From Trypanosoma brucei (lineage: Eukaryota): 64,000 nt of DNA. This document shows positions 2,468 to 51,069 of this stretch, in pieces (position 1 is the stretch's first letter; every line of letters begins with the position of its first letter). The notes under the pieces are model-generated. The model saw only the letters and a list, made by a program, of their open reading frames with translations, was not told the origin of the DNA and searched no databases. The stretch is from positions 1,056,001 through 1,120,000 of the forward strand of contig CM000208.1 in assembly GCA_000002445.1 (NCBI GenBank), written 5' to 3'. The position numbers and the translations under genes were made by a program.

Positions 2468-2548
2468 ATTTAGTGTAATCTCCTCAACGGGAAACGGGAT
2501 TGTGACAGCAGTTCGTTAAAATTACACCGTCAAAACACTTAGATCGCA

Positions 2549-6463: not shown

Positions 6464-6895
6464 ATTGCCCTCCGGGAGATGTCGCCTAACTTTTCAAAAG
6501 AAAAAAATAGAGGAGCGGAAGTAAATATATGACGGCGCATGTGCAGAGGAAGTTGTACGTAATTCAACTGATGCGGATAACACAAGAGAAAAACATAGGT
6601 TAGTAACACCAACAGAAGCTTACAAACAACACGGCGATAGATGAAGAAGAGATGGAAGAAGGGAAGAAGGGAAGGAGGAAAAACAAAAACAAAAACGCCG
6701 CCGCACCGGCGTCAACAAAACCTAAATAAACAAGGGGGAAAACGTTTTAGCACCGACTGCACCAAATCCAAAACACATCAGTCGCCTTGTCCACTTCCAA
6801 CAAGGCCTTCCACCGAGTAAATCAATTTACGTTCCTTAGACTGAAATGCATGGTTTCTCTTCTCACTACTTTTGGTCACTGTTGCATTTAACCAA

Positions 6896-10900: not shown

Positions 10901-12219
10901 CCTACTGCCGTCCACACAAAGTAATGTGGTGAAAGGATCCCTAAAAGCAAACAAGTGTTTTGTAAAGTCACCCATGGAAAAGTGATACAACAACAAGTGA
11001 AGGTAACAAACCTTCACAGCCCCAACACAACATGGAACTCAGGAACAGTAGAGCAAAAAAAAGAAAAAGAAAAAAGAAAAAAGAAAGAAAATGCCTTAAA
11101 GCGTCGGAACAAACAAACTAAAGTGTGGTATCACCTCACCGTTCAAGTTGTTGCTGTGGCCGTACGCTCCCAACATGTCTTTCCTTTCCCCTTCTCTCTA
11201 ATGTGATCCATCTATCCCCATTCTCCGTTCCACACACACACAAGAAAAAAAAGAAAAAAACGCCACCAAAAAAAAGCCTCCCACCCCTTCCCCCCCCCCC
11301 GCCTCCGGGAACTTCATCGCTAAATAATAAAATACCGCTGCGGACTCTACTGACAAAGTGGGGAACCGGCTGCTTAAGAACTGCACCATTTCTTGACCAT
11401 TTTTTTTTTCCTTTGAACTCTGTTGTTTTGTTTCCATCTCCTGGGATTGTCGAAAAAACGGGAGCGAATACATGGCATATGAAATATTGAAGCGAATATA
11501 TTTATATATTTTATATATGGCAAGAGCATTGAGGTAATGTAAGAAGGTGATTAATTAGAAGGAAAAAGAAAACAAAGAAACAAACACACGTGTACGAAGC
11601 ACCACAGTCGCGCCTTCCTATAGCCCCAGATCCCAGTCCCCACCCAATTCACACAGTTCCTTCTTATCGTACTCTACATTAAATGAAATAAATAAACAAA
11701 TAAAACGAACCGCATACATCCCTTTGTCCTTTTTGAGGCCGTTTATTTAAATCCATACCCCCGAGTACCTCCAAAACAGGGTGTCCTCATATCCCCCTCA
11801 CAGCAAGCGAACATATATAAAGATAGATGAAGGTAAATACATTATTGATATAGCGCTTACGTAACTCGGGACGGCACTTTTGTCCAAATGCACCTCCCTC
11901 TCGTATGGTGTCGGAGATGGAAAGTGTTTGAGAAGGAGAGAAGAAAAAAAAAAGAAAAAAAAGATCCCGCATTACATTTAAGGATTTTAATGTGCTACTA
12001 CCACCGCGTTCACCAGGGAGAGGAAGGGAAAACGGTGTAAAATCGTACAACAAGGGGAGGAATACACAAAAACGGTACAAATCAAACAAATGGGAGACGG
12101 AAGGGAGTGGGAAGTCTAAGGGGATAAATTATATATATATATATATACCCTCGCAACCACGCCATAACTAATACGGAAAGAAAAAAGGAGGAAGAGCGCA
12201 ACGCATGCTGCTATTATTA

Positions 12220-20600: not shown

Positions 20601-21237
20601 AATTCCGGCCCTCCTTAGCACCCCCACTTCTCTGCAAACGGCCCCTTTCCTCATCCAACCCAGATGCACGATCATCTCCCGTAAAACGACCACGTGATCT
20701 CCTTGTAGAGGTCATAAAATTCACAGGAGCTGCTTTCTGTAGTTCCGGTGCTGCGGGAGCTGCTTTCTGTAGTTCCGGTGCTGCGGGAGCTGCTTTCTGT
20801 AGTTCCGGTGCTGCGGGAGCTGCTTTCTGTAGTTCCGGTGCTGCGGGAGCTGCTTTCTGTAGTTCCGGTGCTGCGGGAGCTGCTTTCTGTAGTTCCGGTG
20901 CTGCGGGAGCTGCTTTCTGTAGTTCCGGTGCTGCGGGAGCTGCTTTCTGTAGTTCCGGTGCTGCGGGAGCTGCTTTCTGTAGTTCCGGTGCTGCGGGAGC
21001 TGCTTTCTGTAGTTCCGGTGCTGCAGGAGCTGCTTTCTGTAGTTCCGGTGCTGCGGGAGCTGCTTTCTGTAGTTCCGGTGCTGCGGGAGCTGCTTTCTGT
21101 AGTTCCGGTGCTGCAGGAGCTGCTTTCTTGAGTGGTTCAGTTTGGTATCTTCTCACAGCATTCCCTGTTACCGCAAATAGGCAGCCGGTTGGGGGACCGC
21201 TGAGCGCCGAAGCGACTGTAGGTGCAAATCGCCGCAT
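17686..21237 (-). CDS. repeat protein: predicted mitochondrial presequence + 13 x PELQKAAPAA decapeptide repeats + degenerate enoyl-CoA hydratase and 3-hydroxyacyl-CoA dehydrogenase-like domains
   Basis: The track ORF starts at a TTG at 21285, and the first ATG gives MRRFAPTVASALSG (Arg/hydroxyl-rich). The repeat array is at 20724-21128. The middle has a crotonase-like segment AIVNGGSLDDFAAELFLACH...TFGFPSCMLGDFP. The C-terminal region resembles the HCDH NAD-binding and C-terminal domains, with a degenerate glycine loop. Confidence 0.6.
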   Translation of the reverse strand: MRRFAPTVASALSGPPTGCLFAVTGNAVRRYQTEPLKKAAPAAPELQKAAPAAPELQKAAPAAPELQKAAPAAPELQKAAPAAPELQKAAPAAPELQKAAPAAPELQKAAPAAPELQKAAPAAPELQKAAPAAPELQKAAPAAPELQKAAPAAPELQKAAPAAPELQKAAPVNFMTSTRRSRGRFTGDDRASGLDEERGRLQRSGGAKEGRNSRREVGYSKKEKIRSRGDTYKGNRDMSLSNVVEDIQDIKIVFASHNPSPSKRQVPFAPKAAPRAPDPPKAPLAPPAAPSMPSDFVASSKPVSGSRNGTRTTIAPPTASGDPQDTVWAKSSALSLDEEIERARATRPLVRSPVIVGREIEGLSLNFEHCEKSEPIVELADKGGLKELSEKEATLIDNHMVPDDFSGGAFMQKHTGVTHDVVGEKELSELSINNTVTAASLETSLYGMEEQQPKESDGRSNLSSTVSSCITEHPPLAPWTCGAFTAQSGSALLKLSFDESSQHIVTITLWEPLVSTISAVGALNEAITAIENHSVTMSGPVTHVVLTSLPGIAFFQPKHSPLELSCSERIELIREKERLFLRMAKTPPLNFVAIVNGGSLDDFAAELFLACHYRVFLDATHTTFGFPSCMLGDFPTSHAVRQLCRYFGAQRTLAASQQQYRFTAATLLDAGVARHARDTREGLTALRLSYVDHSKASPPTSLLLRLENALLALLNRPALRDFVLRRFFLTRSTGGSSVEVYSNPITQAWRRYCLAAMASGGCTHNVGESGNASAAVETGTLRSEGIYSEFLFSPSALNAARIYGHGCEIQRRVLSSPPDGGYLRFKADEAELWPRKVRALSAESCNQVTVLLDCGKSNIEAIKSLVKDQSGVLTKANVVLIGDEYVARPLIPEFNCVATISPVSAYAVSPLRDLQEVRLFGREGCPEHLRASTLSAALAYLQQEYRPYVVCRHSCSGRLIAAFVTEACRIAMHCDIEKVERVSTGVLRLLGGPFRLADHLGTSTVSRLIEETSHMNDHRNPLIHDWLPSIGYQVLRSMSNDGFGGIRTRRGGFYTYGADGSSVALNTVVQKQYLRRHLTDTELSDRLLSVVVNECCELLLSGHLLTAADANALTIATLGFSETTGGALTLADAMGAGLMLQKMEELAVWHGAHLQPSPLLKCMAHSRVSFANLSEAVIQSARM
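20724..21128. repeat. 13 copies of a 30-bp tandem repeat (tgctttctgtagttccggtgctgcgggagc), 11 identical plus 2 with a single synonymous G>A change; in-frame inside the CDS above
   Basis: Direct reading of lines 20701-21140. Repeat units start every 30 nt from 20731. Units at 21001 and 21091 carry ctgcaggagc. Confidence 0.95.
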
Positions 21238-22769
21238 TAGTGACGACAAACAATGTTGACAGCGGTGGATGTACTTATTCGGCAATACGTTATATTTACA
21301 CTCGTTGTGACAACCGGTTACTTATCCAACTTTCCCCTCTGCCGCCTTTGCAGGTGTGCAATTTGTTCTCCCCCTTCGCTTCGCACCAATGATTTCGTGA
21401 TAGGTTTGGTGTGCAGATTAGTTTTCTATGGCTCCAGTGACACTCTCCCTTGAAAAGTTAATATATTTTGGATTAACATACGCGAAGAAATAATTGTGAG
21501 AGGAGGAGGAGGAGTGCCACACCACCACGTAACAGCCGCAAGAAGAAAAAGTTGTGCCAGCACCTTTAGCGCATTCAGTCGTGGTCCCATGATATTTTAT
21601 CCCAATCTTTGGCCCTCTTTAGTATTCGGAAAATAATAACGGCACCCTACCGTTCCAGATAGCTTCCTCATACATGGAACTCACCTCGATACTCCACCTC
21701 CTAGAGTGGCAGTGGAGTATCACTTACACGGTCACCGTCCAAGGTCCCTCCAGCACCACCGAATGAGGAAATAACTTCAAACAGCATATCGACTGTGGGG
21801 AGCGTAAACAGCAACGGCAAGTTACAACAATCACTGACAGTAATAAAAGGGAATGGACGACATACGCCTCAATCGTATACTTTGAGCGCAACTTTTGAGC
21901 CTGCAGGCGCCATGAGCATGATTGCCTCGTAACATAACCACACGCAAACCGGTACCAGCGGGAACAACCACACGACCTGGGGTGGCAGGCCGTATACCTT
22001 TTCCCGATGTGCTCCCACGTCTACCGGATCAAGTGCACGCAGAACGAAAAACGTCGCAACGGTAACAAACAATACCCAAAGAGGAAGCGCGATAGGTCGC
22101 AAAAACATGCTTCTGTCTCTACAGTCGGCTTTCACTTGTGTAAGTGTAGCGGCTGTGGAGTAAACGTTCCGACTCCGTTTTTGTATATGACGTCGCAGTA
22201 AATGGTGCGTAATTAACGGCGGTAAACGAATGTTTTCTTTTTTCTTTTACCGTCTATACCTTACTGGCATGTAGGCGTCCAATCTTTATCGACACTGATA
22301 TCTCTCCTACCTTTCTAAGTGAGTTAGATAATATATTTGAAAGAGAAGAGAAAACAAATAAACTCACCGTCCCCCGGTACGATCAGTTTCAGGGTTGTAC
22401 CAATAGGCTGCGTTTTGTTCGGTCACTGTAAGTCATTTGATGTTGCCATTCTTTCACGTTTATCCTTCACCCACACCCATTTTCGGCCAAACAATCCAAA
22501 CTTTTAGGCAAAGTTAACTGGCATTAAGACACCATGACCAAAGGGGAATCAAAAACTAACTCCTCGATACAAGCCGTGACATTTCTTCCGACTCGCGCCG
22601 ATGACGGCAAGGGCGTGCCGGTTAACTGACTTGAGCAGCTTCGAGCTGGCTTCGAGGGCCCGATCACAGAGACTCGGGACGGCGCATAACCGTCCTACCA
22701 ACGTAATGCAACATTTGCATACTTCCACCTGGTCACATCCTGCGCGCTTTCAGCACCCTGCCTGGGCAC

Positions 22770-24845: not shown

Positions 24846-25275
24846 CACCGAAGTAGGAGGGGAGGTGAAGAATGTGGGATTGGGTGTCCCCTGTTTCAAA
24901 GACTAATAAGAGGTATGTGTAAGGCGCCTTGAAATAAAAAGCAGATATCAAAGCAGCAGAATATGAAACCCGGGATTCAATGCAAAGTAAGATACATCCG
25001 CAACGTCCGTTCCTTATACCCACCCTCCCTCGGAGCATTGCAGCCGTCGAACAGCAACGGAAAGGCTATGGGTAGCACTCGCCCGCGTATTCCTCACAAT
25101 GACCGCTTTGGGGGGGGACGGTGGCGGTACGTAAACCAAATGACCATTAAAAGTAATAAACAACAAAAAGAAGAATGATTGGGGTGACAGACCAACTCAG
25201 CACCGGTAAGCCTCATCAAATCACTTGAACGACTCTCGGAAAGGAACATGACGGCACACACCTACACCGTTGCGA

Positions 25276-25593
25276 TTATGCAGAAGTGATGTCAGAGTCA
25301 CCAACATCCGTAATGGAAAGTACGCAAGCACGGAAATGCCTTCCGCATGCCGTTCCAAGGTCAAGGTTGTTGCCGCTGTAGTGGTGAATTGGCGTCTTGC
25401 TTAAAGTGCAGTAGTACTCAATCTCCGCCTTGCGAATCGGCGGGCAGTTCGCGGAAATGACGACGAGTTTGCTGCGGCCCTGACGAAGTGTCTTGAGTGA
25501 CTGCTGCGTCCCGAGAACGTATTTGCCGGATTTCATCACCAGTTGGATCTTGGTGTTGATGGTGTCCACCTTCGACTTGACCTTCTTCGCCAT
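25276..25593 (-). CDS. RPL30: 60S ribosomal protein L30 (L30e), copy 1
   Basis: 105 aa [61 protein letters not shown]..., the L30e/L7Ae family signature. Confidence 0.9.
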
Positions 25594-25903
25594 TGTGCCA
25601 GCACCGGTCCCTGTGTTTCGAAGCGGTAGTCCAACAAACAGTAAAAATAAAGAGAGGAGAGAGGGGAAAGGTATTCAATAGGATAATAGCAGATGTGGAC
25701 GCAAATATTAGGTAGACACAGTACAGTCTCGCCAGATTACGAGTGGCTGAAAAATTTTAAGCTGGTTTGAATCCAAAGGGAACAAAATTTGTGGCAAAAA
25801 AAAAATAATAATAATAATGCCTACAGTACCCCATTCCTTTGCATCAAATCACTTGAACGACTCTCGGAAAGGAACATGACGGCACACACCTACACCGTTG
25901 CGA

Positions 25904-26221
25904 TTATGCAGAAGTGATGTCAGAGTCACCAACATCCGTAATGGAAAGTACGCAAGCACGGAAATGCCTTCCGCATGCCGTTCCAAGGTCAAGGTTGTTG
26001 CCGCTGTAGTGGTGAATTGGCGTCTTGCTTAAAGTGCAGTAGTACTCAATCTCCGCCTTGCGAATCGGCGGGCAGTTCGCGGAAATGACGACGAGTTTGC
26101 TGCGGCCCTGACGAAGTGTCTTGAGTGACTGCTGCGTCCCGAGAACGTATTTGCCGGATTTCATCACCAGTTGGATCTTGGTGTTGATGGTGTCCACCTT
26201 CGACTTGACCTTCTTCGCCAT
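25904..26221 (-). CDS. RPL30: 60S ribosomal protein L30 (L30e), copy 2 (nucleotide-identical CDS)
   Basis: Same 318-nt CDS. The track ORF is extended upstream to 26290, but the ATG matching copy 1 is at 26221. Confidence 0.9.
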
Positions 26222-27835
26222 TGTGCTACTGGAAAGGGAGGCTGCCATCGAGTATTGGAAAAGACGAAACAGAAGAAGGAATGAAAGCAAATTATGGTCA
26301 GAGAGGTTTCAAAAGAGTCCCCAAATAGAAAATGGAAAGTCTACAGAAGCGACACAACCCCCGACGACAATGTGGAAACAGTTATCTCAGTTGGCAAGGA
26401 GGAGAAGTCCATCCAGCCACACAAACAAGTGGACACAGTACCACCACCAACATTACCACCATCCAGCACTTCACGAGCAGTTTGGGTAGCGTCTCCACCT
26501 TCTCGTTTATTGCGCTAGTCAGGGGACGAAGAACAAAATCGGGTCCCGCTCTTTGAGTAAGCATGTATAAAGCAACATTACCGTTCCAGAGAAAACTGTT
26601 ACCGTTGGTGTGTGGACAAGACGGGACGAACAGGGAAAAGATAAGCTCAACTCTACGTGACTCCTCACGCACTAGCAAGACACATCACGATATATATATA
26701 TTATTTATTTATTGATTTATTTATATATTCTGAAACATAACCAGTTGGTCAGCACCGTTAAAACATACCCCATTTGTTTGTTCCCCCGGTCGCAACTAGT
26801 TACAAACACCACAACATTGCAGCACACCTCACATTACACCGAGTTGCAGTGGCGTGCCGATACGTGCCACATTTCACTTCATGGAATCACTACTTTCGGG
26901 AGCAAAGCCACTGAAGAAGGTCGTCACGTCCAACCAGCCGACGGCTTTGTGAGGCACAGTACAGACGGATGTCGACAAACCAAACGTATCTTTTTTTTTT
27001 CAGAAACAAACAAAATTTCACCTGGGTGCCGCCGGATCGAGCAGCCTGCACGTTGATTAAACAATTCAATAGCTCCTAAAGGGGCAGTGGCCAAAAACAT
27101 TACCATTTGCCCACATACTAAAATACTTGGGCACTTCCCCTTTCCTATAGCGCCCTCGGGGCGTGGTTCGGCAGACGGTAAAACTTTTAAAAAATCCTTA
27201 AGTAATGAAGAGAAATCCAATGAGGGGAGGAAACGGTGTATGAAACGTATTGCTCTTCTCACTTTGCCCCTTGCTCACTTTCTTCCCATATCCGCGGAGA
27301 GCACCAACGAACATAGAGGCGCGAAAATACAAGTCAGCGAAAGTGATTTGCAACAACATACCACATCATTCTTCTTCGCACGTTAATACCACAAGAACAC
27401 AAACATGGGGGAGCGAGTTATATCGCTCAGGAGGTAGACGGCTGCGACGACATCGCAGTACAAAGAGTTGGACGGCAAACCAAGGTTGAAAAATGAGAGC
27501 GAGAAAGGGCATGCGTACTTACATTTTTTCCAACACCAACCAACCTCCTATTTTTCCTATCCCTGAACCCCAGCCGTCATTCCCAGTAACAAAAACTTGC
27601 CGATACTTAACCGCAGACTCCCTACCTCTGCATTCCCCCAACAACACACACCACACTAGCCCTGTTGCAGTGCTACGCAGCAGTTGCCAAGGAGAGACCA
27701 CGTAAACATACTCACTACCCACATCACGATAAAAAAGAAAACAACTAAACTTTATACCTCACTCTAACCACCCAACCCCCGGCTGGCTTGCAACTCCAGT
27801 GATGCAATCATCCACTGCCACAGTGCAGTTGATAG

Positions 27836-27859
27836 CACACACACACACACACACACACA
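27836..27859. repeat. (AC)12 microsatellite
   Basis: Direct reading. Similar (CA)n runs occur at about 9996-10013 and 30167-30187, and (TA)n at 12130-12148 and 44183-44201. Confidence 0.9.
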
Positions 27860-28404
27860 TCAACTTCCTCTTTTCCACCGCTTCTTTCCCTGTCGTCGCG
27901 GTTTCTCATACGATGAATCCCGTCCACATTCCAACACTTTCACGAAGTGTCACTCAGTCAACACTGTCAACCCTGCAGGTTCCGTTTTGAGCAGCGTCAA
28001 CTGCAGGCGGTTGTGGCGAACAGTTCTTGACGCCGTTAGTTCCCTCATGAGAAACAACACAGCGGCTCGTGCTGCAACACGCTGTCACTTTCGGTGAAAG
28101 TATATGACAAACGGAGAATCTACGCAACGAAAACCATATGCGGGAAGACGAAGATCCGGTGGTTGGCAAAGAAGCACCTGCCGACAGGTGGGCACAGGAA
28201 ACAAATAGCAAGTAATGCAAAGCAAGACTAAGGCTTGCGGTGCACTAAAACAATGAATCGGAACTTAAAATGTGGGGCGCGCTCACGTACAGAAGCACAG
28301 TCGAGGCACGGACCCACTATCTATACTTAACAAACTGTCCCCTTCCTTCAACTCTTCTCTGCACTTCCCCTGATCGTTCACCGAACAGTAGCTTCCCTAC
28401 ACCC

Positions 28405-41155: not shown

Positions 41156-43256
41156 AACTGAAAGGGGGAAAGCCTCCTATGTCCACAACCCGCGCTCGCA
41201 ACCAACCACCCGAGATGTAGGTATATGTTGTCGGGCGTGCAGGTGAATTCTACCCCACCCAACTTTCCAACTCCTATACAAGTCAGATGACGCGATACTG
41301 AGTAAGCTGGTTCAGAGATGGGAAAGAAGCCACACATATGCAATATGCTAACGCATACAGAAGACAAATGCATTTGTCAAAAAAAAAAAAAAATGCAATC
41401 AGACAATTTATGTGAACAGTCCTTTTCAGGGAAGCAAAAAAGTGACTAGAATGGAAACGTTATCGAAAAGAAACGAAAAGCCGAAGAGCACTCGGCAAAC
41501 AAACACCTTCTGTATATGCATAATATGCGCAGGGGTAGACCTCGCCGACTGAATTCACCCCCTTTACCGATATAATGTCAACTCAGATTCGGCTTCCAAC
41601 AGGATACGAAACCTCCCTTAAAGTGTGCTGAAACCTTCATGACAGACGACGACACAAAAAAAAAAAAAAGACATTCTACTTGTCATCATCAGGAAGCTTT
41701 GAAACTCCCCCGTCATACAACACCATTCTTCCTTCAATTAAGAACACGGTGCTATTGTTCAACGTAAACGACATCCTCCTATTCCACTTGAACGACACGA
41801 TGACGCGGATTCCCAACACGCGCAGTCCACAAGTGTCAGTCACAAGAACGGCATAGGTTTAATCCAGCAAGTGCATACAAAAACACACTTAGCTTTACCA
41901 TTTTGTATCTTGCATTGAATATAACCCTACAACAAAAGTTTTTCAAAATAGGGGGAAAATGCAAGTGTAAAAAAAATATGTACAAAGACACGATAAAAGT
42001 AGCCTCAAATTAAAAAAAAAATAAACTCATGATCAGACGTGTTGCCATCGACATGCAGATATAGCAATATAGATATTTTTCTTTCCAGCACCTCTTACCA
42101 CCTTTCTTGACAACGTTTATATCTTAGTAGCACCTTCAGTCTTTTGAATATAGCGTCACCCATTAAGAATAAACCAGAGGAATAGTTCGTGGGAGACCGG
42201 CTCTTCACTGACGGTGGCAGCAAAAATCCTGCTACCCAAACGAGGAAGTAGATCACATATTAGTAAACGCAAGAGGCTCTATTGTTTAAAAACTGTTCCA
42301 AGCACAACAAGTTTGTACTACAAGTCAGACCTCTTCCCCCTCCCCCCGGAAAAGAAAAAAGAAAAAAGAAAAAGAACAACAGTAAGGGAAAAGAAAGAGG
42401 GAAAACTCAAACACATTACCCCCTTCACACGAACACGCACACAGAGACACGCAAAAAGGAGGCGCTTTCATCAGCCGGAAGAAGAAAGACAGGGAACCTT
42501 CGTCACCATCCATTCCACGGTGATCCGGCATTTCCATTTTTAGAATGTATTACATATGGGTCCCCACCTTCCTGTGGATGGACGAAGCAAGCTAGTTCAC
42601 CACAGACGTGAGACAAGGTAAAACACCTGCAGCGCTTGGCGTCAGCATTGAAAATGAAGTTCTGCACGCGATACGCACATTGCCATTACCTCTCCTTCTC
42701 TACGTTGCCTCTTTGGCAAGCTCACCCATGTGTGTATTTCAGCGCAAGCAACGCCATGCCATCCATCCGACAGTCTTTCTGGTCCTTTTTTTTTTTTTGC
42801 GTTGTTATTTACTTACCTCTAACTACCTCGTCTGGTTTACATCAAACAGTGCCGTCCTCCACTCTTTTTTATCTCCACCCTGCAAGTGTTGTTATCACGG
42901 ACACGTCCTTTTCACTTCACGCTGTCCTCTTACTCTTGTTTTCTCTCTTTATACAGACCACGTCCTTTTTTTTCTTCTCTTACAGCCCCGCACAGAAAAT
43001 GCCTCAGTGAAGCCAGCAAGCAAAAAACAAGACAACCCCGACACCAACTAGCAACTTTCATAGCATCGCCTTTCCCCCTTCTTTCGTCCATAGAATGTTC
43101 ACTTAGATAATATAAATTGTAGGAAGTTAATCAGTTTTAGATCGCGCAATCCCCTATAACACCATCTCCTTTCCGTATTTTATCATTCGTCCCCACATGT
43201 TGGAGGAGTATCACCCAATTCAAGTAATTGAATGCGCCCTCGCTCCGTCATATTTT

Positions 43257-44000
43257 TTAGCATTGCAATGACGCTAAGTCCCGATTGACGCGCACGTGCT
43301 CACCCGGTTTCCATACAGACGTGTCAAGTCTGTAAACGTCAATAAAATCACCCACGTCAGTTTGGATTGGACCATGCTTCAACATGTCACAAGAAGAAAT
43401 GAATTGCGGAACGGTCATGCCGCTGTCGCAAAGTCTCCGAACGAGTTCCTGGAGGGCGTGGATGGTGTTGTCGGCACTTTCCCCTCCTTCATAGTCTTCC
43501 ACAAGTATCCCATTCTGTTGATGGCCCCTAATACAATCAGGGGTGTTTTCGATTATCAGAACCATCTCAAGCGGCCTTCCAAGAACAGCTAAATCCTTCT
43601 GATAACCAGCACAGCCGGTAAACCATTTACTGTGTCGGTAGATGCAATGAGAAACAACCCTGTCCTTGTCGATGTTTCGAATGATCGCCTGAGCATATGC
43701 ACGTAAACCTGCCGTCCAAACGACGACCTCCACACATTTTTCCTTGCACAACTGGAAGAACTCATCAAGCCCTGGCCTCGCGTAAAGAGGGCCTTCGCGA
43801 GCATAAACAAGAGTTTCATCCAAGTCCAATGCTAGGGTAAGTTTGCCGTTGTATCTGGGATCTTGATCAGGAAGCACCCATCTGCTGTTCATCTCCTGAT
43901 TCATCGAGGGCGCACGTTGCCGAGTCCTTCGCAACGCTGCACATTGGTACTCCTGCTTAAATGAAGCACCACGAATTCTTTGGCGAGGGACAGTAGACAT
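43257..44000 (-). CDS. NIF/FCP1-homology (CTD small phosphatase-like) HAD-family phosphatase
   Basis: LALDLDETLVY (DxDxT motif), ...VVVWTAGLRAYA..., ...KDLAVLGRPLEMVLIIENTP.... The track ORF starts at a GTG at 44114, and the first ATG is at 44000. Confidence 0.7.
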   Translation of the reverse strand: MSTVPRQRIRGASFKQEYQCAALRRTRQRAPSMNQEMNSRWVLPDQDPRYNGKLTLALDLDETLVYAREGPLYARPGLDEFFQLCKEKCVEVVVWTAGLRAYAQAIIRNIDKDRVVSHCIYRHSKWFTGCAGYQKDLAVLGRPLEMVLIIENTPDCIRGHQQNGILVEDYEGGESADNTIHALQELVRRLCDSGMTVPQFISSCDMLKHGPIQTDVGDFIDVYRLDTSVWKPGEHVRVNRDLASLQC

Positions 44001-47000
44001 AGCCACAGATAACGTAATGAAATTGATAATCACTGGCACAGATAAGAAATTCCCAAGGGGAAACAGTACCCTCCTAACCTGCAAACACTGACAAGTGCTC
44101 TTTGTGTCGCTCACCTACTCTTCAATATCAAGTTAACATCAATAAAATATGTAACATACGAAGCGTCGGGACCGAAAGTCAAATATATATATATATATAT
44201 TATCATTATTATAACAGTGTTAATTATGCCAGAAACACTGCATCCCTCGAAAATTTGCAACCGAGTAGCGGAGTTTTCAAGAACGAAAAATCTAATAACA
44301 GTTTCACACAAAAAAATCATAACAACGTATCATACAAAACAATCAAGAAATAAAAGAAAACAACATTCATTTCGTTAAAGTTTGCTTTGGTGATTAATAT
44401 ATTAACAATGGAGTAAATGAAACTGTACATCGAAATAAACCCCACCATTTATGGGTGAACGATAAGTCTACTCATCAAAACATAATAACCAATGCCTCAG
44501 GGTTGGGTAAGTACAATATATACTTTCACACCTCCTCACCGGGGACTGAATGAACTAAACGATCGTTACTCCATCCCACCTTCACGTAACAGCCAAACGG
44601 AAATTCATCGGCATAAGCTAAAGCTGTTATTGCTAACGTGGAGCCTGCAGATAGCAAATCAACCGCTAAAACCCCAAAAAGATCACCGTCAGATAAGGCC
44701 TAACACAAGACCATACCATGCCTGCGGAGCACGTGTTCGAAAGTAGATGACAGCTACATTTTCTAAACCACCTGATATCTACATACATGACATCGTCCAC
44801 ATTCACATGCACGAAAAATGATCAGCGACAACACGGTCCCAACAGCGCGGAACCAAAGGCCCAAAGATGTCTAACAGGAAAAAAGGTTTATTACGGTCAA
44901 AAGAAGCAAGACAATACTGGTGAAAAAATAGGGCGTGACATCAATCCTACAAACGTATAAATATCGAGGCGGCACCTTTAAGCAATAAAAGGGTGGCTTC
45001 GGTGAAAATACACATCATTGTTTCGCCGGACAAACATGCTAACTTAGCACGCACACGCGCTCATACACACATAGGCATGTCGGCCCAGTATAAACAAGCA
45101 GACATCGGTTGTTCCGGGTAAAATGTTTATAATCAAATATGAAAAAAAATAAACGAAACATGGAAAGGAGGGTCCTGAGATAAAATTCGTCTCAACAAAG
45201 ACCCATCCACCAAGCTCCCGAATGCACTATGTAACAGAGTTACTCTAGTTACCGGCACGCGTGCTTACACGAATGTTACGTCCATCCTTTTGAGTAGTTA
45301 CTCACAAAGAAGACGACACCTCCACAGCACCCAGCCGGGAAATAACGGGGTCAAGATAAATAGAGATGCTTAATTTTGAGCGGGCATGAGTATGATCACA
45401 AAAACAATCCGTTAGCGCATTTTCAAATAGCAAACGTCCGTAAGGGCGCAACGAAGCCGTTGGCAGCAGTCAACAGCACATATGCATTTATAAATCTCCG
45501 AAAATAGAGGAATTACATCAACTAGGCCCATTTTGACAGACACAGTGGACCACGCGCTTGGCCGCCAGCTAACAAACGAGCGATAGGCAGCATTCTTTTG
45601 ACTTCCCATTCTTCCACCAGGGCCTCTGGCGGCGCCCGCCCACATGAAAGTTGGATGCCACGGCAACTATATCCTACGAGGTTGAACTCCCCGCAATGCA
45701 GCGAGTCTTGTAGGAGCGAACCCCCAGTAAGGTCCACGGTTCGTAGAACAACTGCTCTCCCTATTCATTTGACATTCGTTCCACTCCGCCCACGTCAATG
45801 AACGACAAAAGGTAGCCTCTGACATTGCTCAAATGACAAGAACAATTCTTTAGTGTTTTTTTTCTGAGAACATACACCACGCTAAATTTTTCTTTTTAAG
45901 TGCTTCATACACGAACTTGCCACTTTTGGCGAAATAGTACAACGGAGCCTCAACGATGGTTCCACAAATTTTTTTAAAAAATGGGCAAAAAAAAAATGTC
46001 AACAAGATGACGGCCAAATACACGAAAATGAGTGAGCCGCTTCCACGGGCACAGACAAACAAGCTGCCAGAAAGGAACAGAAGTCAGCCGCCCAGCCGAA
46101 CCTCCTCCACATCACCCAGACACTTTTTTGAGGCGGCTGCACTGCACGACCTAGAGTCCGCCCTGGTCTACAGTCGAAAGATGTACGGGGCAGCGCCAAA
46201 CCCTTGCCAACATTAATGACTACTGAAATGCGGGGAAACCTTCCGGCCGGTACGAGAGCGTGTCCCCAGGAGATTATTCATAGGGACAAAGTGGACTTCT
46301 GCCTTTTTCAGGGAGACACGCACGAGGGTCAGAGGAAGCACCCTGTCAAACGACCATGGTCACCGGTTCATTGGTTCTGAGTGCCCCAAAACGAACAATT
46401 GCGACGGGTCAGTGCCCGTTTGGGATGGAGTCGCCGCGCAGTTGAGATAGCTGAGACGGGTCAGGCTTTGGACGGCATGGTCGCTACGCAGTGCTCCCAA
46501 ACAATCAGCAGCCAGTTGTGACATCTGTCTCCTTCCCCCAAGGTCCCGGAAATTCGTAGGGAAAGTTCAGGGTGACTTTTCGAGAACCAAGACACGGAAA
46601 TAATCACAGCAGCGGCAAAACTTCACCACGCTGCCAGAGATTCCCCCGTTCCGGGACATGCAGACAGCAAGCCGATAGCAGATTGATGACTAGAACAGGG
46701 CTTTGCGGTTGGCGGCAACGGGCCCCGAACCGGACTGAAATAAGTATAAGTCTGCGCCTTTCCCATGGAATTTATCCCCTTTTTTTTCCACTGCGAGACG
46801 ACGGCGAGCCAAAATCGGGTGAACCCTGGACCGCGCTAACAACCAGATCATATTCTGTTTAACGGTCAGGGGCGCTGCTAAAGAAAAGGATTGTGTATTA
46901 TGAACGCCAAATGACCCCGTCCCCGCGGGTGTAGTGAAGGAGAAAAGCGAAATGGCAAATGCCCCTGAGCAAAGTGCGGTTGAGGCAAAGAAAAAGGGCT

Positions 47001-48474
47001 TTAAAGGGCAGCGAAGAATTGAAACAGACACTTCGATATCACTGCGTTTGCTATTCTCGTAGCGCTGGGAAAATCAATTCCAAAAGAGAGCTGTTGCGGC
47101 ACGGCCTGAACACCAAACCTCACTTCCGTCGGAGGGAGAATAGGGCAGTGTGCAAAATCGGAGATGCGACGCCCGTCGCGTGGAGGAGGGCCTTAGCTTA
47201 AACAGATGAATAAGGATAAAGAGATGGAGGCTTCCACAATATTCGGATGAGGGAAGAGCAGTTGGGTGCTGAATCAGATCCCCGGGAGACCCCCGCCGGC
47301 TGCAGGCGCTAAGATTACCCGCGGTAACACGCTGAAAAAGCGGCTACGGGAACGAGTGTTGGTGAATATACATGAGAACCTTTTCAGGAAGATACCAGCA
47401 ACTCTGCGAATCTTAATCCCCAGTACCACGAGTTATCAACTTCGGTGGTGCGCGACCGCTATGCGGGAGAACGGTGGGGTGCTTCACAGGTGCGTCGGGA
47501 CAAAAGGACACGGAGCTTGCTCTGTGACAGAGGCAACGGAGACGACCCCGGAACGATACGGTGTTCTCCCGCGGTTTCCACCCCTTTTCTTTCATATTAA
47601 AACTCCTGTGGCGGAAACCCCTGCGGGACCGAGGTCACAAAAGTCGCTGCCTTTTTTACTGGGAACAAAACACAAGGAAACGGTTAGTGGCGTAAAGTTT
47701 CGGTCCACGGAGTCGGAAATGTCCGGAAAAAAACGCACGCATAGGAGTCCAACCGTTGTGTGAGGAAGGTTCTGATTTGGGTGAAGTATCCACGGAATGC
47801 AAGAGCGAACCCTCCACGCTCATTGCTGGTTGTGGTGTTCTGCGGCGACATGCTGTCCAGCGCGTAATCCAGGCGAAAGACTTGCGAGTGTGAATACGAT
47901 GGCACCGCACAACGATTTTTCTCAACTTCATCTTCGTGAATTCGGTTGTGCTCTAAAGGAAATATCACATATTGCACTCTAGAGTATCGGAAGGGCCGCA
48001 GCGCGTCACGACCCAACGGGTGTGCTTAGTATCAGGGGGCGAACTAAGTGCAGCTGAGCCGTGCCTTGAAAAGTTAGTTCCCATACCTGGTTTAAAAACA
48101 GGAGTGTAAACATCCGCAGCGCGTTGTTTCGCTGTAGAGTATCGTGTGGGAGGTAGTTTAGCGACTTTGATTTGCCCCTTTTAAAAAACATTACGTTTAA
48201 TATTTTCAAATCTACTTTTGAATACCGAATTGTTGTTTTTCATCACTCACCTAATGTGGCATGGGAGTAATTCACATGATGTGACCCTACAAGGCGATCA
48301 AGATCTTTACAATAATAGCAATAATAATAATAGATTGTATGTGCCGTTATACTGTCATCCCTATCTCATTATCAACCGGTCTTGTGTTGATGTATGGTAC
48401 AACGAACCTCGGAAGTTTCCCTATAGTTTAACTACCACTTGCGATTGATATCCTCATCTTATTCTGCTTTAGTC
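44001..48474. other. divergent strand-switch region between the minus polycistron (ends with the phosphatase gene) and the plus polycistron (starts at 48475); probable RNA pol II transcription start zone
   Basis: Coding strand flips here. No ORF >170 aa on either strand over about 4.4 kb. Confidence 0.6.
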
Positions 48475-51069
48475 ATGTCATCCAAGCAGGAGAGAATAGC
48501 CGATGCTATGAAGGAGCGCGTCACCCAACTAGAAAGGGAATTGAGGGAATGCCAGCAGCAGCTACAGGAGGCGTTGCAAAGAGGTGATGATATACAGTGC
48601 GCCAAGGAAGCGTTACAGTGCGAAGCCCATGATATTGTGGATCAGTGGTCTAGAAAAACAGCAGAGTTGCAGACAAAACTCAACGAATGCTTATGTGAAC
48701 TAAGTGAAGCTCGTCGTTTAATTGCACTTTCTGAGGATAGGAACACTGGACTGCAAAATCAGCTTCAACAGTTGGAGGCACACCATTTATCTCAGTTTCA
48801 AGAGTTAGAGAAATATGAAACACAAAACAAGGAACTTTCGGAGAAACTGGCTGCGACGGAAAGAAGTTTGTGTTTTGCCTCTCAGCAAGTAGGTGCCATG
48901 GAGGGGCGCGTCAACGAAATGGTTGCAGAAATCGAGCAGAAGAGTGAACAAATCACGTCACTTTCCCGAAAGGAGGACATGCTCGCGGAGGCGTTGTTGG
49001 AGCTTCAAAAAAGCAGGAAACAAGCAGAGACTATATATAATGAGGGAAGGGAAAGAGTTTCCCTGCTTGACGATGAGCTTTCACGTGCGAAACGACTATT
49101 GGCGCGCACGAGAGATGCATTGCTTCTCACAGAGCAGGAGGTATTTTGCCGGTGTAAAATTATCGCTGATGAAGCAAACACTATGGTTGGGGCTCTATTT
49201 AATCAACTGCTTTCTGCGATTCACAGTAACGAGTCATATGGGGAAGCCCTGAAAGAAGCTCAACATAATAGTGCCTCTCTGGCAGAAGAAAATGGGCTGC
49301 TTCTGCTGAAACTACAGGAAGCGGAACAGGATCTGTCCAAGCTGCGCGTCGAGCAAGGGCAAGAAACTGCAACGTGCCGAGAGCAAATACGGCTACTCGA
49401 ACTAGACGTGAGGGAACTTCAGGACGCACGAATAAACTGGTCTCGTGAACTAGAAGCCGTGCAAAATGAACTAGGTAGATCCGAGACCAATCGCCACACT
49501 CTTGAGGAGTCGAAAATGAGCCTCAACGCGGAGCTAAAGATTGTTAAGGATTGTTATAGCACCCTGCTCGTGGAGCACGATGAACTAAAGATATCAGTTC
49601 AGATAATGCGACGGGAGTCAGAAGCAGAGATTTCGCGGCTAGTGACAGAGAAGGCCAGCGCTATGAATAGTTACGAAATGAAATTGCAAGAGGTATGTAT
49701 GAGAAACACAACCCTGAACCAAATTTTGAAATTCAAAGAGCATGAGATGTTGTGTCACAGAGAATCTAACGGACGTCAGTCCATTTTGGTCGAGAACTAT
49801 CATGAGTTGGTGGGCCTGACGCAACTTTATATTAGTAAATGTGAATTCATTCACAGCAGAATGTATAATCAGGTTTTGGACAGCAGGGAAAAAATAGCAT
49901 CTTTAACTCAAACTATAAGCGAGAAACAACTGGAAAACAGCAAGCTCGTTTCAATTGCTAGGGACTTGGAGGAGAAGGTTACTTCAGCTCAAAACGACGC
50001 TAAGATGTTTCGATCGAAGGTAGTAGAACTATCTACTGCTCTCAACTCGAACAGAGAGGAAGCTGATAATCTCGTCAGTGAAAATAAGTGGCTTAGTGAT
50101 CAAGTTTTCGGCATGCGTGAAGAACTACGTGACATTGATGTCTTATTCAACTGCACACTCAATGACATGCGAGAGCAAGGTGAAAATCAGCAAAGAGAAC
50201 GTGAAATGTTATCTGAAGAGGTTAATCGTTACGAAAAGCTTTTGCAAAAATCCCAGCAGAAAATAAGTAGATGCGAGGAACGATGTTCTGTTTTTGCTGC
50301 CGAAAAGGCCGCAATGTTGAAAACTTTGACGCTGGCAGAAGAGGAGCTTCTCACAGCAAAGTCAGAGTGTTCTCGTGCTCGCGAGCGCGAACAATTTTCT
50401 TTGAAAGAGAAGGGTATTCTTGAAAAGGAACTTTCGCAAATGAGAAGGGATTATGTTAGTTCAACAAATCAGGTCAAAGCGCTAATGGAAGAGTTGAGAA
50501 CCCATGATGTTAAACAACAATTAATGAACTCGTCATCTCGCACAGAAGTGGAAGCAACGAAAACGAAACTGAATACATACATAGAATTGTATGAGAACGC
50601 TAACGTCCAAGTTGCGCAACTCACAAAATCTCTGCAGGAATCTCGAGATGCTTATGACAACTTACATGAGTCACACCAAAAAGCGAAGGTTGCGTTGGAG
50701 GATGCCAAGCAACGTTGTTGCCATGACGCGCAAGAAATACAAAAGGCATTGGAAGAACGCCAGCGCATAGCAAGTGAACGAGACACATTGGTGGAAAAGT
50801 ACAACAAGGTTCATGATGTGCTCAAGTTAATAAAAAAAGAGAACTCTGGGACTATGGCTGAAGAAGTACGAAAACTATCCGATCTTTGTTCTCAGCAAGA
50901 AGCTGAACTACAAGAACTGCGTCACCAAAATGTGATACTAAAGCGTGGCATCGTGAAAGTGGCGGATGAAACTCACAATCCCGTAGAAAGGGGAAAGTTT
51001 GTAGAACGCCTCAACCTCGCCGAGGGTCCACTTCGTCGACCGAAGAAGCGTCCTGCAACAGATTCTTGA
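48475..51069 (+). CDS. coiled-coil protein (864 aa), hypothetical
   Basis: The track ORF starts at a TTG at 48439, and the first ATG (MSSKQERIADAMKERV) is at 48475, directly after a polypyrimidine tract and an AG. E/L/Q/K-rich heptads throughout. Confidence 0.65.
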   Translation: MSSKQERIADAMKERVTQLERELRECQQQLQEALQRGDDIQCAKEALQCEAHDIVDQWSRKTAELQTKLNECLCELSEARRLIALSEDRNTGLQNQLQQLEAHHLSQFQELEKYETQNKELSEKLAATERSLCFASQQVGAMEGRVNEMVAEIEQKSEQITSLSRKEDMLAEALLELQKSRKQAETIYNEGRERVSLLDDELSRAKRLLARTRDALLLTEQEVFCRCKIIADEANTMVGALFNQLLSAIHSNESYGEALKEAQHNSASLAEENGLLLLKLQEAEQDLSKLRVEQGQETATCREQIRLLELDVRELQDARINWSRELEAVQNELGRSETNRHTLEESKMSLNAELKIVKDCYSTLLVEHDELKISVQIMRRESEAEISRLVTEKASAMNSYEMKLQEVCMRNTTLNQILKFKEHEMLCHRESNGRQSILVENYHELVGLTQLYISKCEFIHSRMYNQVLDSREKIASLTQTISEKQLENSKLVSIARDLEEKVTSAQNDAKMFRSKVVELSTALNSNREEADNLVSENKWLSDQVFGMREELRDIDVLFNCTLNDMREQGENQQREREMLSEEVNRYEKLLQKSQQKISRCEERCSVFAAEKAAMLKTLTLAEEELLTAKSECSRAREREQFSLKEKGILEKELSQMRRDYVSSTNQVKALMEELRTHDVKQQLMNSSSRTEVEATKTKLNTYIELYENANVQVAQLTKSLQESRDAYDNLHESHQKAKVALEDAKQRCCHDAQEIQKALEERQRIASERDTLVEKYNKVHDVLKLIKKENSGTMAEEVRKLSDLCSQQEAELQELRHQNVILKRGIVKVADETHNPVERGKFVERLNLAEGPLRRPKKRPATDS

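What the first reader, a model, noticed from the sequence alone, without database searches (positions are those of the whole stretch)
44001..48474. Divergent strand-switch region with a GC-rich, non-repetitive, non-coding core (about 45000-48100)
Other spacers in the window are pyrimidine- or purine-tract-rich. This 3-kb core is compositionally gene-like, GC-rich with mixed bases, but it is shattered by stops in all six frames, with the longest ORF 165 aa and no recognisable protein similarity. Its position at a divergent strand-switch region makes it a candidate bidirectional pol II start zone. Alternatively it could be a decayed retroposon (ingi/RIME/DIRE/SIDER-type) or a decayed gene, or structured ncRNA. 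I could not find tRNA T-loop/D-loop signatures (GGTTCGAATCC-like) on either strand.
Basis: partly seen in the sequence, partly recalled or inferred. Interest (0 to 1): 0.55.

Follow-up and report, generated by a model that had tools for sequence, protein, structure and literature searches.

The report
Trypanosome divergent transcription start region
This is an ordinary, already catalogued head-to-head gap between two Trypanosoma brucei gene clusters where RNA polymerase II starts in both directions; its GC-rich middle is non-coding DNA lying between the first RNA-processing signals of the two clusters, not a decayed gene or retroposon.

Summary
The window is T. brucei TREU927 chromosome 10, Tb927_10_v4 1,056,001-1,120,000. 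The finding is the divergent strand-switch region between Tb10.70.3070 (NIF-type phosphatase, minus strand) and Tb10.70.3050 (864-aa coiled-coil protein, plus strand). Kolev et al. 2010 Table S14 already lists both as first genes of 'Divergent' Pol II units.

The GC-rich, repeat-free stretch is 46,000-48,100 (52.8% GC), not 45,000-48,100. Stops occur in all six frames at chance frequency. The 165-aa ORF is no longer than shuffled sequence gives. It is frameshifted in two of three sister assemblies and has no homologues outside Trypanozoon, yet GenBank annotates part of it as Tb10.70.3060.

The left part (44,226-45,922) is not silent: it holds two published trans-spliced, polyadenylated minus-strand transcripts. 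The GC core therefore lies between the mapped leftward splice-acceptor and the presumed rightward one, and the GC skew changes sign at its left edge.

SNP density in the core equals that at third codon positions, so it looks neutral. I found no evidence for a retroposon, decayed gene, structured RNA or centromere. The same dSSR in T. theileri and Angomonas also has a GC island, with no sequence similarity in T. theileri. Verdict: known biology, low interest.

The parts
43260..44000 (-). CDS of the NIF / CTD-small-phosphatase-like protein (247 aa; EAN77838.1; inferred to be Tb10.70.3070). It is the first annotated ORF of the leftward Pol II unit.
   Evidence: Translation. It is identical to P0001 and carries Pfam PF03031. 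The Tb10.70.3070 label is inferred from gene order and consecutive accessions.
44226..44870 (-). Tb10.NT.48, a published novel transcript that is trans-spliced and polyadenylated (644 nt, about 1 RNA per cell).
   Evidence: Kolev Table S7 gives 1,100,870->1,100,226, converted with the offset of 1,056,000. An AG lies at 44,872-44,871 on the minus strand, preceded by a pyrimidine tract at 44,876-44,886.
45016..45922 (-). Tb10.NT.49, a published novel transcript (906 nt, about 0.5 RNA per cell). Its 5' end at 45,922 is the first mapped spliced-leader acceptor of the leftward unit.
   Evidence: Kolev Table S7 gives 1,101,922->1,101,016. An AG lies at 45,924-45,923 on the minus strand immediately upstream.
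45969..45996 (-). T-rich polypyrimidine tract on the minus strand (A6 and A10 on the plus strand) upstream of the 45,922 acceptor. It marks the left edge of the GC core.
   Evidence: Sequence.
46000..48100 (.). GC-rich (52.8%), repeat-free, ORF-poor core. It is the inferred zone of Pol II initiation for both units, plus the discarded pre-splice leaders.
   Evidence: Composition. No coding signal. No excess RNA structure: mean fold z is +0.25. SNP density is 1.38%, the same as at third codon positions. Placement between the mapped left acceptor and the presumed right acceptor rests.
46150..46300 (.). Point where the GC skew changes sign. Cumulative skew is minimal here. To the left the minus strand is G+T rich (55-61%). 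To the right the plus strand is G-rich.
47266..47763 (+). Chance ORF of 165 aa from GTG. Its last 100 codons (47461-47763) are annotated as Tb10.70.3060, a 'T. brucei spp.-specific protein'. It is probably not a gene.
   Evidence: Exact identity to EAN77839.1. It is frameshifted by 1-nt and 2-3-nt indels in two sister assemblies, with 7-8 nonsynonymous against 3 synonymous changes. Its length is within chance. It has no homologues outside Trypanozoon.
48101..48474 (+). AT/T-rich 5' flank of the first rightward gene (37-44% GC). It is the presumed region of that unit's first spliced-leader acceptor. The site itself was not mapped here.
   Evidence: Composition. The acceptor is inferred: Kolev Table S4 was truncated in the stored copy.
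48475..51069 (+). CDS of the 864-aa coiled-coil (CCDC39-like) protein (EAN77840.1; inferred to be Tb10.70.3050). It is the first annotated ORF of the rightward Pol II unit.
   Evidence: Orthologues carry a CCDC39 Pfam hit. The Tb10.70.3050 label is inferred from gene order and consecutive accessions.

Best explanation
The interval is the divergent strand-switch region of T. brucei chromosome 10 at Tb927_10_v4 1,100,001-1,104,474. It is a pair of back-to-back, dispersed RNA polymerase II transcription start regions.

Pol II most likely starts inside or at the edges of the GC-rich core (46,000-48,100) and runs outward on both strands. Leftward transcripts are first trans-spliced at 45,922. They yield Tb10.NT.49, then Tb10.NT.48, then the NIF-phosphatase mRNA. 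Rightward transcripts are first trans-spliced in the T-rich stretch 48,100-48,474, ahead of the 864-aa coiled-coil gene.

The core is therefore the only part of the interval for which no mature mRNA was listed in the tables I could read. It carries few of the U-rich or polypyrimidine tracts that make ordinary T. brucei spacers AT-rich. Its composition sits at the genome's neutral-looking level: GC3 is 51% and the core is 52.8%. That is why it looks 'gene-like' while having random stop content. The annotated 100-aa ORF inside it is a chance ORF.

Shown here: the locus identity, the divergent units (published table), the left acceptor and its transcripts (published table plus the AG and pyrimidine-tract context), the skew switch, the absence of coding, repeat or RNA-family signal, and neutral-like polymorphism.

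Inferred: the exact start sites, the right-hand acceptor, and whether GC-richness itself matters for initiation.
For: Locus identity. Window 47461-47763 translates exactly to EAN77839.1 (Tb10.70.3060), and the flanking proteins are EAN77838 and EAN77840 of TREU927. The coordinate offset of 1,056,000 was checked in three ways. Poly(A) site 1,116,444 equals the stop at 60,086 plus the published 358-nt 3'UTR. The Tb10.70.3010 poly(A) site falls where expected. Both novel-transcript 5' ends fall directly after an AG that follows a pyrimidine tract.

Published data. Table S14 lists both units as 'Divergent', and 5'-triphosphate reads were enriched at every divergent unit. Pol II and primary transcripts peak at the 5' ends of H2A.Z domains, and coding strands show G-over-C and T-over-A skew.

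Sequence. The GC skew flips at about 46,150-46,300. The minus strand is 55-61% G+T over 44,000-46,200.

No coding. Six-frame Pfam gave 0 hits. The best-of-six codon score is -0.08 to +0.12, against 0.21 for CDS. ORF length is at chance. The ORF is frameshifted in two assemblies.

Neutral rate. SNP density is 1.38% in the core, 1.34% at codon position 3, 1.37% in intergenic DNA, and 0.5-0.6% at positions 1 and 2.

Synteny. The same head-to-head gene pair is found in T. theileri and Leptomonas pyrrhocoris; in Angomonas deanei an extra Mob1 gene lies between them. T. theileri and A. deanei have a 0.35-0.5 kb GC island that is the GC maximum of all non-coding DNA in the locus (0.61 and 0.71). In T. 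theileri the island is flanked by T-runs on each coding strand; in A. deanei the flanks are similar but less regular.
Against: I could not view any ChIP-seq track or per-base 5'-triphosphate track for this locus, so the exact start sites are inferred.

The hallmark 'GT-rich promoter' 10-mers of Wedel et al. (G10, (GT)n, T-runs) are not enriched here. There are 2 on the plus strand and 9 on the minus strand in 4.5 kb, and no G-run longer than 5. The right arm is G-skewed but not T-rich.

The core contains several pyrimidine tracts on both strands, so further unlisted transcripts are possible.

The T. brucei core is 4-5 times longer than the GC islands of the orthologous regions, and I cannot explain this.

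Within the window the core is not a GC outlier (z = 2.3; other 'non-coding' windows reach 0.57). Those other windows may include short genes I did not mask, such as the RPL30 pair.
Confidence: 0.8

Rival explanations
1. The GC core is a decayed non-LTR retroposon (DIRE, ingi, RIME or SIDER type) that inserted into the strand-switch region and has since degenerated beyond its coding capacity.
For: Retroelements accumulate in trypanosomatid strand-switch regions (abstract of PMC4748587). In T. vivax the DNA upstream of the NIF orthologue holds a degenerate ingi-type reverse transcriptase at L007 157-2594, minus strand. Its hits have E down to 1e-91 and carry PF00078. One weak match exists: 13/38 identities between window 47,314-47,427 and a T. 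vivax ingi-family ORF. The T. brucei core is 4-5 times longer than the orthologous GC islands, which extra inserted DNA would explain.
Against: Six-frame Pfam found no RVT_1 or endonuclease domain at E<=1. tblastn with 110 T. vivax and T. congolense ingi-family proteins gave only noise, with best E 0.03-0.5 scattered over the whole window. A profile HMM of that family scored the ORF165 region at E = 3.4, third among noise hits. tblastx against the T. vivax element gave nothing. There is no Pr77-like 5' end, no HDV-like ribozyme or any other Rfam hit, no flanking target-site duplication and no second copy in the window.

Limits: no T. brucei ingi, RIME, DIRE or SIDER consensus was available, and only the RT-proximal part of the element was modelled.
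Confidence: 0.07
2. The core holds a real but young or decaying protein-coding gene: Tb10.70.3060, or an older gene now broken by frameshifts.
For: GenBank and GeneDB annotate a 100-aa ORF in TREU927 and T. equiperdum, and a 162-aa model in T. b. gambiense. The k-mer composition of the core is CDS-like. In Angomonas an extra gene (Mob1) sits between the two orthologous flanking genes.
Against: The gene models differ between strains because of stop and frameshift differences. There is a 1-nt deletion at 47,652 and a 2-3-nt insertion at 47,726. Substitutions are 7-8 nonsynonymous against 3 synonymous, close to the neutral ratio. SNP density equals that at third codon positions. ORF length is within chance. 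The codon-frame signal is not CDS-like. There is no Pfam domain and no homologue outside Trypanozoon among 1.84 billion representatives. tblastn found no Mob1 remnant. The ORF is not used as the first ORF of the unit in Kolev Table S14.
Confidence: 0.04
3. The core encodes a long or structured non-coding RNA with a function of its own, rather than being only promoter and leader DNA.
For: T. brucei has many lncRNAs. Unspliced, polyadenylated RNAs are seen at Pol II start sites. The core has candidate pyrimidine-tract/AG acceptors on both strands. Two SL-spliced transcripts with no conserved ORF lie just to its left.
Against: Rfam found nothing at gathering thresholds, and only sub-threshold miRNA or scaRNA noise at E<=5. 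Fold z-scores across the core average +0.25, with a minimum near -2. Polymorphism is neutral-like. There is no nucleotide similarity to the orthologous region of T. theileri or to the DNA upstream of the T. vivax NIF gene. Kolev Table S7 lists no novel transcript in 46,000-48,474.
Confidence: 0.1
4. The region is, or also serves as, a chromosome-maintenance element: a centromere (T. cruzi centromeres are GC-rich strand-switch domains) or an ORC-bound replication origin.
For: [quoted passage not shown] T. brucei centromeres also sit between gene clusters. The title of Tiengwe et al. 2012 links replication initiation with transcription in the T. brucei genome.
Against: T. brucei centromeres are defined by kilobase arrays of AT-rich 30-bp or 147-bp repeats plus INGI or DIRE elements. 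Chromosome 10 belongs to the 147-bp class. None is present here. The core is only 2.1 kb. Origin use could not be tested, because no coordinate table was held.
Confidence: 0.03

Closest known systems
Divergent strand-switch regions / Pol II transcription start regions of T. brucei (Siegel 2009; Kolev 2010, PMC2936537; Wedel 2017, PMC5579346)
   Same: Head-to-head gene clusters. The locus is listed by Kolev et al. as the start of two 'Divergent' Pol II units. The skew changes sign between the units. The size is close to the 5-10 kb quoted for such regions. No focused promoter motif is evident.
   Different: It lacks the poly-G and (GT)n 10-mers that are most enriched at the 5' ends of start regions genome-wide. 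Only the leftward arm is G+T rich. Chromatin marks were not examined here.
Mammalian CpG-island-type dispersed, bidirectional promoters (the comparison drawn by Kolev et al.)
   Same: A GC-rich island without a TATA-like motif, from which transcription leaves in both directions over a broad zone. A GC island recurs at the same position in T. theileri and Angomonas, with no sequence similarity to the T. theileri island.
   Different: CpG is not specially enriched: observed/expected is 0.96 in the core and 0.92 in both CDS and intergenic DNA. In T. brucei the core's GC is no higher than GC3. The resemblance is one of behaviour, not of family membership.
T. cruzi centromeric GC-rich strand-switch domains (Obado 2007, PMC1868937)
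   Same: A GC-rich stretch at a strand switch.
   Different: Those domains are 11-16 kb and built of recognisable degenerate retroelements. T. brucei centromeres need AT-rich repeat arrays. Neither feature is present here.
DIRE / ingi-type degenerate retroposons in strand-switch regions
   Same: The location is typical. The T. vivax counterpart of this locus carries such an element.
   Different: No RT or endonuclease remnant, no Pr77 signature, no repeat copy and no similarity to the T. vivax element were found.

Membership tests
T. brucei divergent strand-switch region / Pol II transcription start region | Two gene clusters on opposite strands that point away from each other | tested here: met
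   All long ORFs left of 44,000 are on the minus strand and all right of 48,475 are on the plus strand. The same head-to-head pair is seen in three Trypanozoon assemblies, T. theileri and Leptomonas; in Angomonas a Mob1 gene lies between them.
T. brucei divergent strand-switch region / Pol II transcription start region | Experimental evidence of initiation (5'-triphosphate RNA), with the locus listed as the start of Pol II units | tested here: met
   Checked by look-up, not by computation. Kolev 2010 Table S14 lists Tb10.70.3070..3760 (-) and Tb10.70.3050..2900 (+) as 'Divergent'. The text says 5'-triphosphate reads were enriched at every divergent unit. The per-base track was not seen.
T. brucei divergent strand-switch region / Pol II transcription start region | Enrichment of H2A.Z, H2B.V, H4K10ac and BDF3, with Pol II at the 5' ends of the two domains | not testable with these tools
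   No ChIP-seq tracks are available here. Needs TriTrypDB or GEO data for Tb927_10 1.098-1.108 Mb.
T. brucei divergent strand-switch region / Pol II transcription start region | G-over-C and T-over-A skew on each coding strand, with GT-rich 10-mers at the 5' end (Wedel 2017) | tested here: inconclusive
   In the left arm the minus strand is 55-61% G+T, so the feature is met there. In the right arm G skew is +0.05 to +0.15 but A exceeds T, so it is half met. Of the 157 Wedel 10-mers, 2 occur on the plus strand and 9 on the minus strand in 4.5 kb. There is no G10 and no (GT)n.
T. brucei divergent strand-switch region / Pol II transcription start region | First spliced-leader acceptor sites of both units flank the start zone | tested here: inconclusive
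   Left side: met. The 5' end of Tb10.NT.49 is at 45,922, after an AG and a T10 tract. Right side: only inferred from the T-rich stretch 48,100-48,474, because the acceptor table was truncated.
ingi / RIME / DIRE / SIDER retroposon | Pr77 (77-79 bp) signature or HDV-like ribozyme at the 5' end | tested here: not met
   The first 15 nt of L1Tc Pr77 were searched with up to 3 mismatches. There was no hit in the interval and one chance hit elsewhere. Rfam found nothing. This is a limited test: the T. brucei consensus was unavailable.
ingi / RIME / DIRE / SIDER retroposon | Remnants of reverse transcriptase or AP-endonuclease coding sequence | tested here: not met
   Six-frame Pfam gave 0 hits. 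tblastn with 110 ingi-family proteins gave noise only. The family HMM gave E = 3.4. As a positive control for the tblastn queries, they cover L007 157-2594 in T. vivax with 200 hits; the Pfam scan itself missed RVT_1 in the degenerate T. vivax RT ORF.
ingi / RIME / DIRE / SIDER retroposon | Dispersed multicopy family, poly(A) tail and target-site duplication | tested here: inconclusive
   There is no second copy in the 64-kb window and no flanking direct repeat. Genome-wide copy number cannot be tested here.
Protein-coding gene (Tb10.70.3060) | ORF longer than chance, kept in frame between strains, under purifying selection, with homologues | tested here: not met
   17% of shuffles give a stop-free run at least as long. 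The ORF is frameshifted in two of three sister assemblies, with 7-8 nonsynonymous against 3 synonymous changes. The SNP rate equals that at third codon positions. No homologues outside Trypanozoon were found.
T. brucei centromere | Kilobase array of AT-rich 30-bp or 147-bp repeats plus INGI or DIRE elements between gene clusters | tested here: not met
   TRF and the repeat search found only (AT)9, a 26-nt repeat of 2.3 copies and similar short repeats.
Structured non-coding RNA | Match to a known RNA family, or folding energy well below shuffled controls | tested here: not met
   Rfam found no family at gathering thresholds. The mean z across the core is +0.25. The only strong local fold (z = -4.0) is at 44,901-45,050, outside the core.

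The most novel reading that the evidence does not exclude
A tract-poor GC island bounded by the first polypyrimidine tracts of the two divergent units may be a composition-only promoter determinant. It would be conserved in position across Trypanosomatida (T. brucei, T. theileri, Angomonas, weakly Leptomonas) with no detectable nucleotide similarity (tested against T. theileri). It might act by setting nucleosome or H2A.Z occupancy, and the T. brucei copy would be a 4-5-fold expanded version. My data show the recurrence at one orthologous locus only. In T. brucei the core's GC is no higher than neutral third-position GC, so this reading is not excluded but is weakly supported.
Probability: 0.25. 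Interest if true: 0.4.

Novelty: already known. Interest (0 to 1): 0.15.

Why it matters
It matters little beyond housekeeping. The locus is a textbook T. brucei divergent transcription start region, already tabulated in 2010.

Three by-products are useful. (1) There is sequence-level evidence that the annotated orphan gene Tb10.70.3060 is a chance ORF and could be retired. (2) The 'gene-like' GC content of such cores need not signal a hidden gene. It is what T. brucei DNA looks like when it is neither coding nor UTR. (3) GC islands recur at the same dSSR in distant trypanosomatids. This could be checked genome-wide as a cheap test of whether base composition contributes to dispersed Pol II promoters.

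Tried and rejected
- Rfam at gathering and E-value thresholds, and ARAGORN: nothing credible.
- Six-frame Pfam scan with stops replaced by X: 0 hits.
- phmmer of the 165-aa ORF against 1.84 billion representatives: only Trypanozoon self-hits. The multi-stretch 'hits' (E 1e-18 to 1e-4) were tandem-repeat proteins, so artefacts.
- blastn and tblastx of the interval against the T. theileri orthologous region and the DNA upstream of the T. vivax NIF gene: no similarity.
- Mob1 remnant, because Angomonas has a Mob1 gene between the orthologous flanks: none by tblastn.
- ingi/DIRE test with T. vivax and T. congolense RT-family proteins and a jackhmmer profile: noise. One 13/38-identity match in ORF165 did not survive the profile test.
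- Pr77 5' motif: absent.
- G-quadruplex motifs: none in the interval.
- Wedel GT-rich 10-mers: not enriched.
- RNA-fold z-scan: no excess structure in the core.
- Centromere reading: rejected for lack of AT-rich arrays.
- My first four-sequence polymorphism count suggested a less variable core. I replaced it with a cleaner three-sequence, 20.6-kb analysis that shows neutral-like variation.
- I could not obtain Cordon-Obras 2022 (the 75-bp promoter element), Bringaud's DIRE papers, origin coordinates or the Guegan lncRNA catalogue.
- I could not fetch the T. congolense locus, because no contig is on record for its orthologue.
- I did not resolve the current Tb927.10.xxxx identifiers.

Full report
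WHERE THE WINDOW COMES FROM.
The base composition and the strictly one-strand gene clusters suggested a trypanosome. An exact-protein look-up placed the 864-aa protein encoded at 48475-51069 on Trypanozoon contigs. The flanking NIF-type phosphatase is identical in T. b. brucei, T. b. gambiense and T. equiperdum. Window 47461-47763 translates exactly to EAN77839.1, 'hypothetical protein Tb10.70.3060' of T. b. brucei TREU927. The T. equiperdum and T. b. gambiense versions differ.

Poly(A)-site coordinates in Kolev et al. 2010 fix the offset. Site 1,116,444 for Tb10.70.2970 equals the stop codon at window 60,086 plus the published 358-nt 3'UTR. Tb10.70.3010 also fits. The window is therefore Tb927_10_v4 1,056,001-1,120,000.

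CHECKING THE OBSERVATION.
The strand switch is real. The last minus-strand CDS ends (ATG) at 44,000 and the first plus-strand CDS starts at 48,475.

The GC-rich block is narrower than stated. It spans 46,000-48,100 at 52.8% GC, with a small patch at 45,400-45,850. The 44,100-45,400 stretch is 31-45% GC.

The region is non-repetitive. It has no tRNA and no Rfam family.

Stops occur in all six frames, at the frequency that shuffled sequence gives. The longest stop-free run is 170 codons, against 144 +/- 30 in dinucleotide shuffles, and 17% of shuffles reach it.

'Gene-like' is true of k-mer composition. It is not true of dinucleotide odds ratios, which are nearer to intergenic DNA. It is not true of codon-frame signal, which is intermediate and shows no consistent frame.

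Purine or pyrimidine tracts cover 4.5% of the core, against 5-20% in most other spacers.

THE ORF IN THE CORE.
Public annotation disagrees with 'non-coding'. TREU927 and T. equiperdum carry a 100-aa model. T. b. gambiense carries a different 162-aa model over the same DNA. The models differ because the strains differ by a stop codon, a 1-nt deletion at 47,652 and a 2-3-nt insertion at 47,726. Substitutions are 7-8 nonsynonymous to 3 synonymous. Pfam finds nothing in any frame. phmmer against 1.84 billion representative proteins finds only the Trypanozoon copies and some tandem-repeat artefacts. I conclude that it is a chance ORF.

WHAT PUBLISHED TRANSCRIPTOMICS SAYS ABOUT THIS LOCUS.
Kolev et al. 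2010 Table S14 lists 'Tb10.70.3070..Tb10.70.3760, -, Divergent' and 'Tb10.70.3050..Tb10.70.2900, +, Divergent'. The text states that 5'-triphosphate reads were enriched at every divergent unit. It also states that unspliced, polyadenylated leader fragments accumulate at start sites, because splicing of the first mRNA polyadenylates the upstream RNA.

Table S7 places two trans-spliced, polyadenylated novel transcripts inside the interval, both on the minus strand. Tb10.NT.48 is window 44,870->44,226. Tb10.NT.49 is window 45,922->45,016. Both 5' ends fall immediately after an AG that follows a minus-strand pyrimidine tract. This also validates the coordinate mapping.

The first leftward acceptor is therefore at 45,922. 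Its T10 tract (A10 on the plus strand, 45,987-45,996) abuts the left edge of the GC core. No plus-strand novel transcript is listed between 46,000 and 48,474.

ANATOMY AND MECHANISM.
The GC skew changes sign at about 46,150-46,300. To the left, the minus strand is 55-61% G+T. This is the coding-strand bias that Wedel et al. describe for transcription start regions. To the right, the plus strand is G-rich but not T-rich, until the T-rich 48,100-48,474 stretch ahead of the first gene.

The GC core is thus the DNA between the mapped leftward splice-acceptor signal and the presumed rightward one. Leftward initiation must lie to the right of 45,996. Rightward initiation must lie to the left of roughly 48,100-48,470.

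The core contributes to no mature mRNA listed in the tables I could read. It carries fewer of the U-rich and polypyrimidine tracts that make ordinary spacers AT-rich. Its GC (52.8%) matches GC3 of the window's genes (51%).

Polymorphism among three Trypanozoon sequences over 20.6 kb is 1.38% in the core. It is 1.34% at third codon positions and 1.37% in other intergenic DNA. It is 0.5-0.6% at codon positions 1 and 2. The primary sequence therefore drifts neutrally on this time scale. That fits a dispersed promoter with loose sequence requirements. It argues against a gene or a constrained RNA.

RIVALS.
Retroposon. This deserved a real test. The T. vivax counterpart (the DNA upstream of the NIF orthologue, where synteny is broken) does contain a degenerate ingi-type reverse transcriptase. 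Using 110 T. vivax and T. congolense ingi-family proteins as queries, tblastn on the T. brucei window gave only scattered noise. One 13/38-identity match inside ORF165 fell to E = 3.4 with a family profile. Pfam, tblastx, a Pr77 5'-motif search and Rfam were all negative. T. brucei consensus elements were not available, so a very old DIRE cannot be fully excluded.

Decayed gene. There is no frame signal, no homologue, and no remnant of the Mob1 gene that sits between the orthologous flanks in Angomonas.

Structured RNA. Fold z-scores in the core average +0.25.

Centromere. T. brucei centromeres need kilobase AT-rich repeat arrays plus INGI or DIRE elements, and none is present.

COMPARATIVE VIEW.
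The head-to-head pair (NIF gene and CCDC39-like gene) is conserved in T. theileri and Leptomonas pyrrhocoris. It is also conserved in Angomonas deanei, with an extra gene in between. blastn and tblastx found no similarity between the T. brucei interval and the T. theileri intergenic region; the Leptomonas and Angomonas regions were not aligned.

Even so, T. theileri and A. deanei each have a 0.35-0.5 kb GC island. It peaks at 0.61 and 0.71 respectively. In both species this exceeds every other non-coding window in the locus and exceeds GC3. In T. theileri it is flanked by T-runs on each coding strand; in A. deanei the flanks are similar but less regular (A-rich on the plus strand to the left; an A-run and then T-runs to the right). 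In T. theileri both skews flip inside the island. Leptomonas shows only a weak rise.

The T. brucei core has the same architecture but is 4-5 times longer, and it is no richer in GC than neutral sites. I cannot explain the extra length.

VERDICT.
The hallmark GT-rich or poly-G 10-mers are not enriched here. That is a mild peculiarity, not a departure from the class. Interest is low. The most novel reading still open is that a GC island is a position-conserved, composition-only promoter feature across trypanosomatids.

Noticed in passing
window 44,955-45,010 (within 44,901-45,050, + strand): An imperfect hairpin (UCGAGGCGGCACCUUU...AAAGGGUGGCUUCGGU) gives the only strong local fold in the interval: z = -3.97 with 200 shuffles. 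It lies in the 145-nt gap between transcripts Tb10.NT.48 and Tb10.NT.49, outside the GC core. There is no Rfam match.
   Followed up: partly
window 25,214-25,513 and 25,842-26,141 (- strand genes 25,276-25,593 and about 25,904-26,221): A 300-nt perfect direct repeat is a tandem pair of identical 105-aa ribosomal protein L30 genes (Tb10.70.3160 and Tb10.70.3170). The '3.5-kb spacer' 24,900-28,404 is therefore not empty.
   Followed up: yes
window 41,410-41,926 (- strand): Published novel SL-spliced, polyadenylated transcript Tb10.NT.47 (516 nt, about 4 RNAs per cell). It lies in the 2.1-kb spacer between the NIF gene and the 2,539-aa gene.
   Followed up: no
window 7,943-12,219: A 4.3-kb AT-rich spacer (34-37% GC) inside the minus-strand cluster. 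It has purine or pyrimidine tracts up to 41 nt, an (AC)n run at 9,993-10,012 and two C-rich G4-type motifs. It also has the window's highest density of Wedel-type T-rich and GT 10-mers (51 on the minus strand in 8-12 kb). Kolev's table lists no internal start site here.
   Followed up: no
window 20,636-21,223 (inside the 1,199-aa CDS 17,686-21,285, - strand): About 20 near-identical tandem copies of a 30-nt unit, giving a 10-aa protein repeat inside a long coding sequence.
   Followed up: no
L007 (T. vivax SOPI01000535.1) 157-2,594, - strand; GC-rich block 1-7,000: Upstream of the T. vivax NIF orthologue, synteny with the coiled-coil gene is lost. In its place lies a degenerate ingi-type reverse-transcriptase remnant (homologues with E down to 1e-91) in a 60-65% GC block full of overlapping spurious ORFs, some of them called as genes.
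   Followed up: partly
L012 (Angomonas deanei LR877147.1) 8,595-9,278, - strand: A 227-aa Mob1/phocein-family gene sits between the CCDC39-like gene and the NIF gene. This shrinks the divergent gap to 0.7 kb. No trace of it exists in T. brucei, T. theileri or Leptomonas.
   Followed up: partly
L002 (GCA_003543875.1 CM010681.1), region matching window 48,475-51,069: No gene was called for the 864-aa coiled-coil protein in this assembly. The four-way alignment shows a single 1-nt indel in the CDS in one of the sister assemblies; I did not determine which. It may be an assembly error or a strain-specific frameshift.
   Followed up: no
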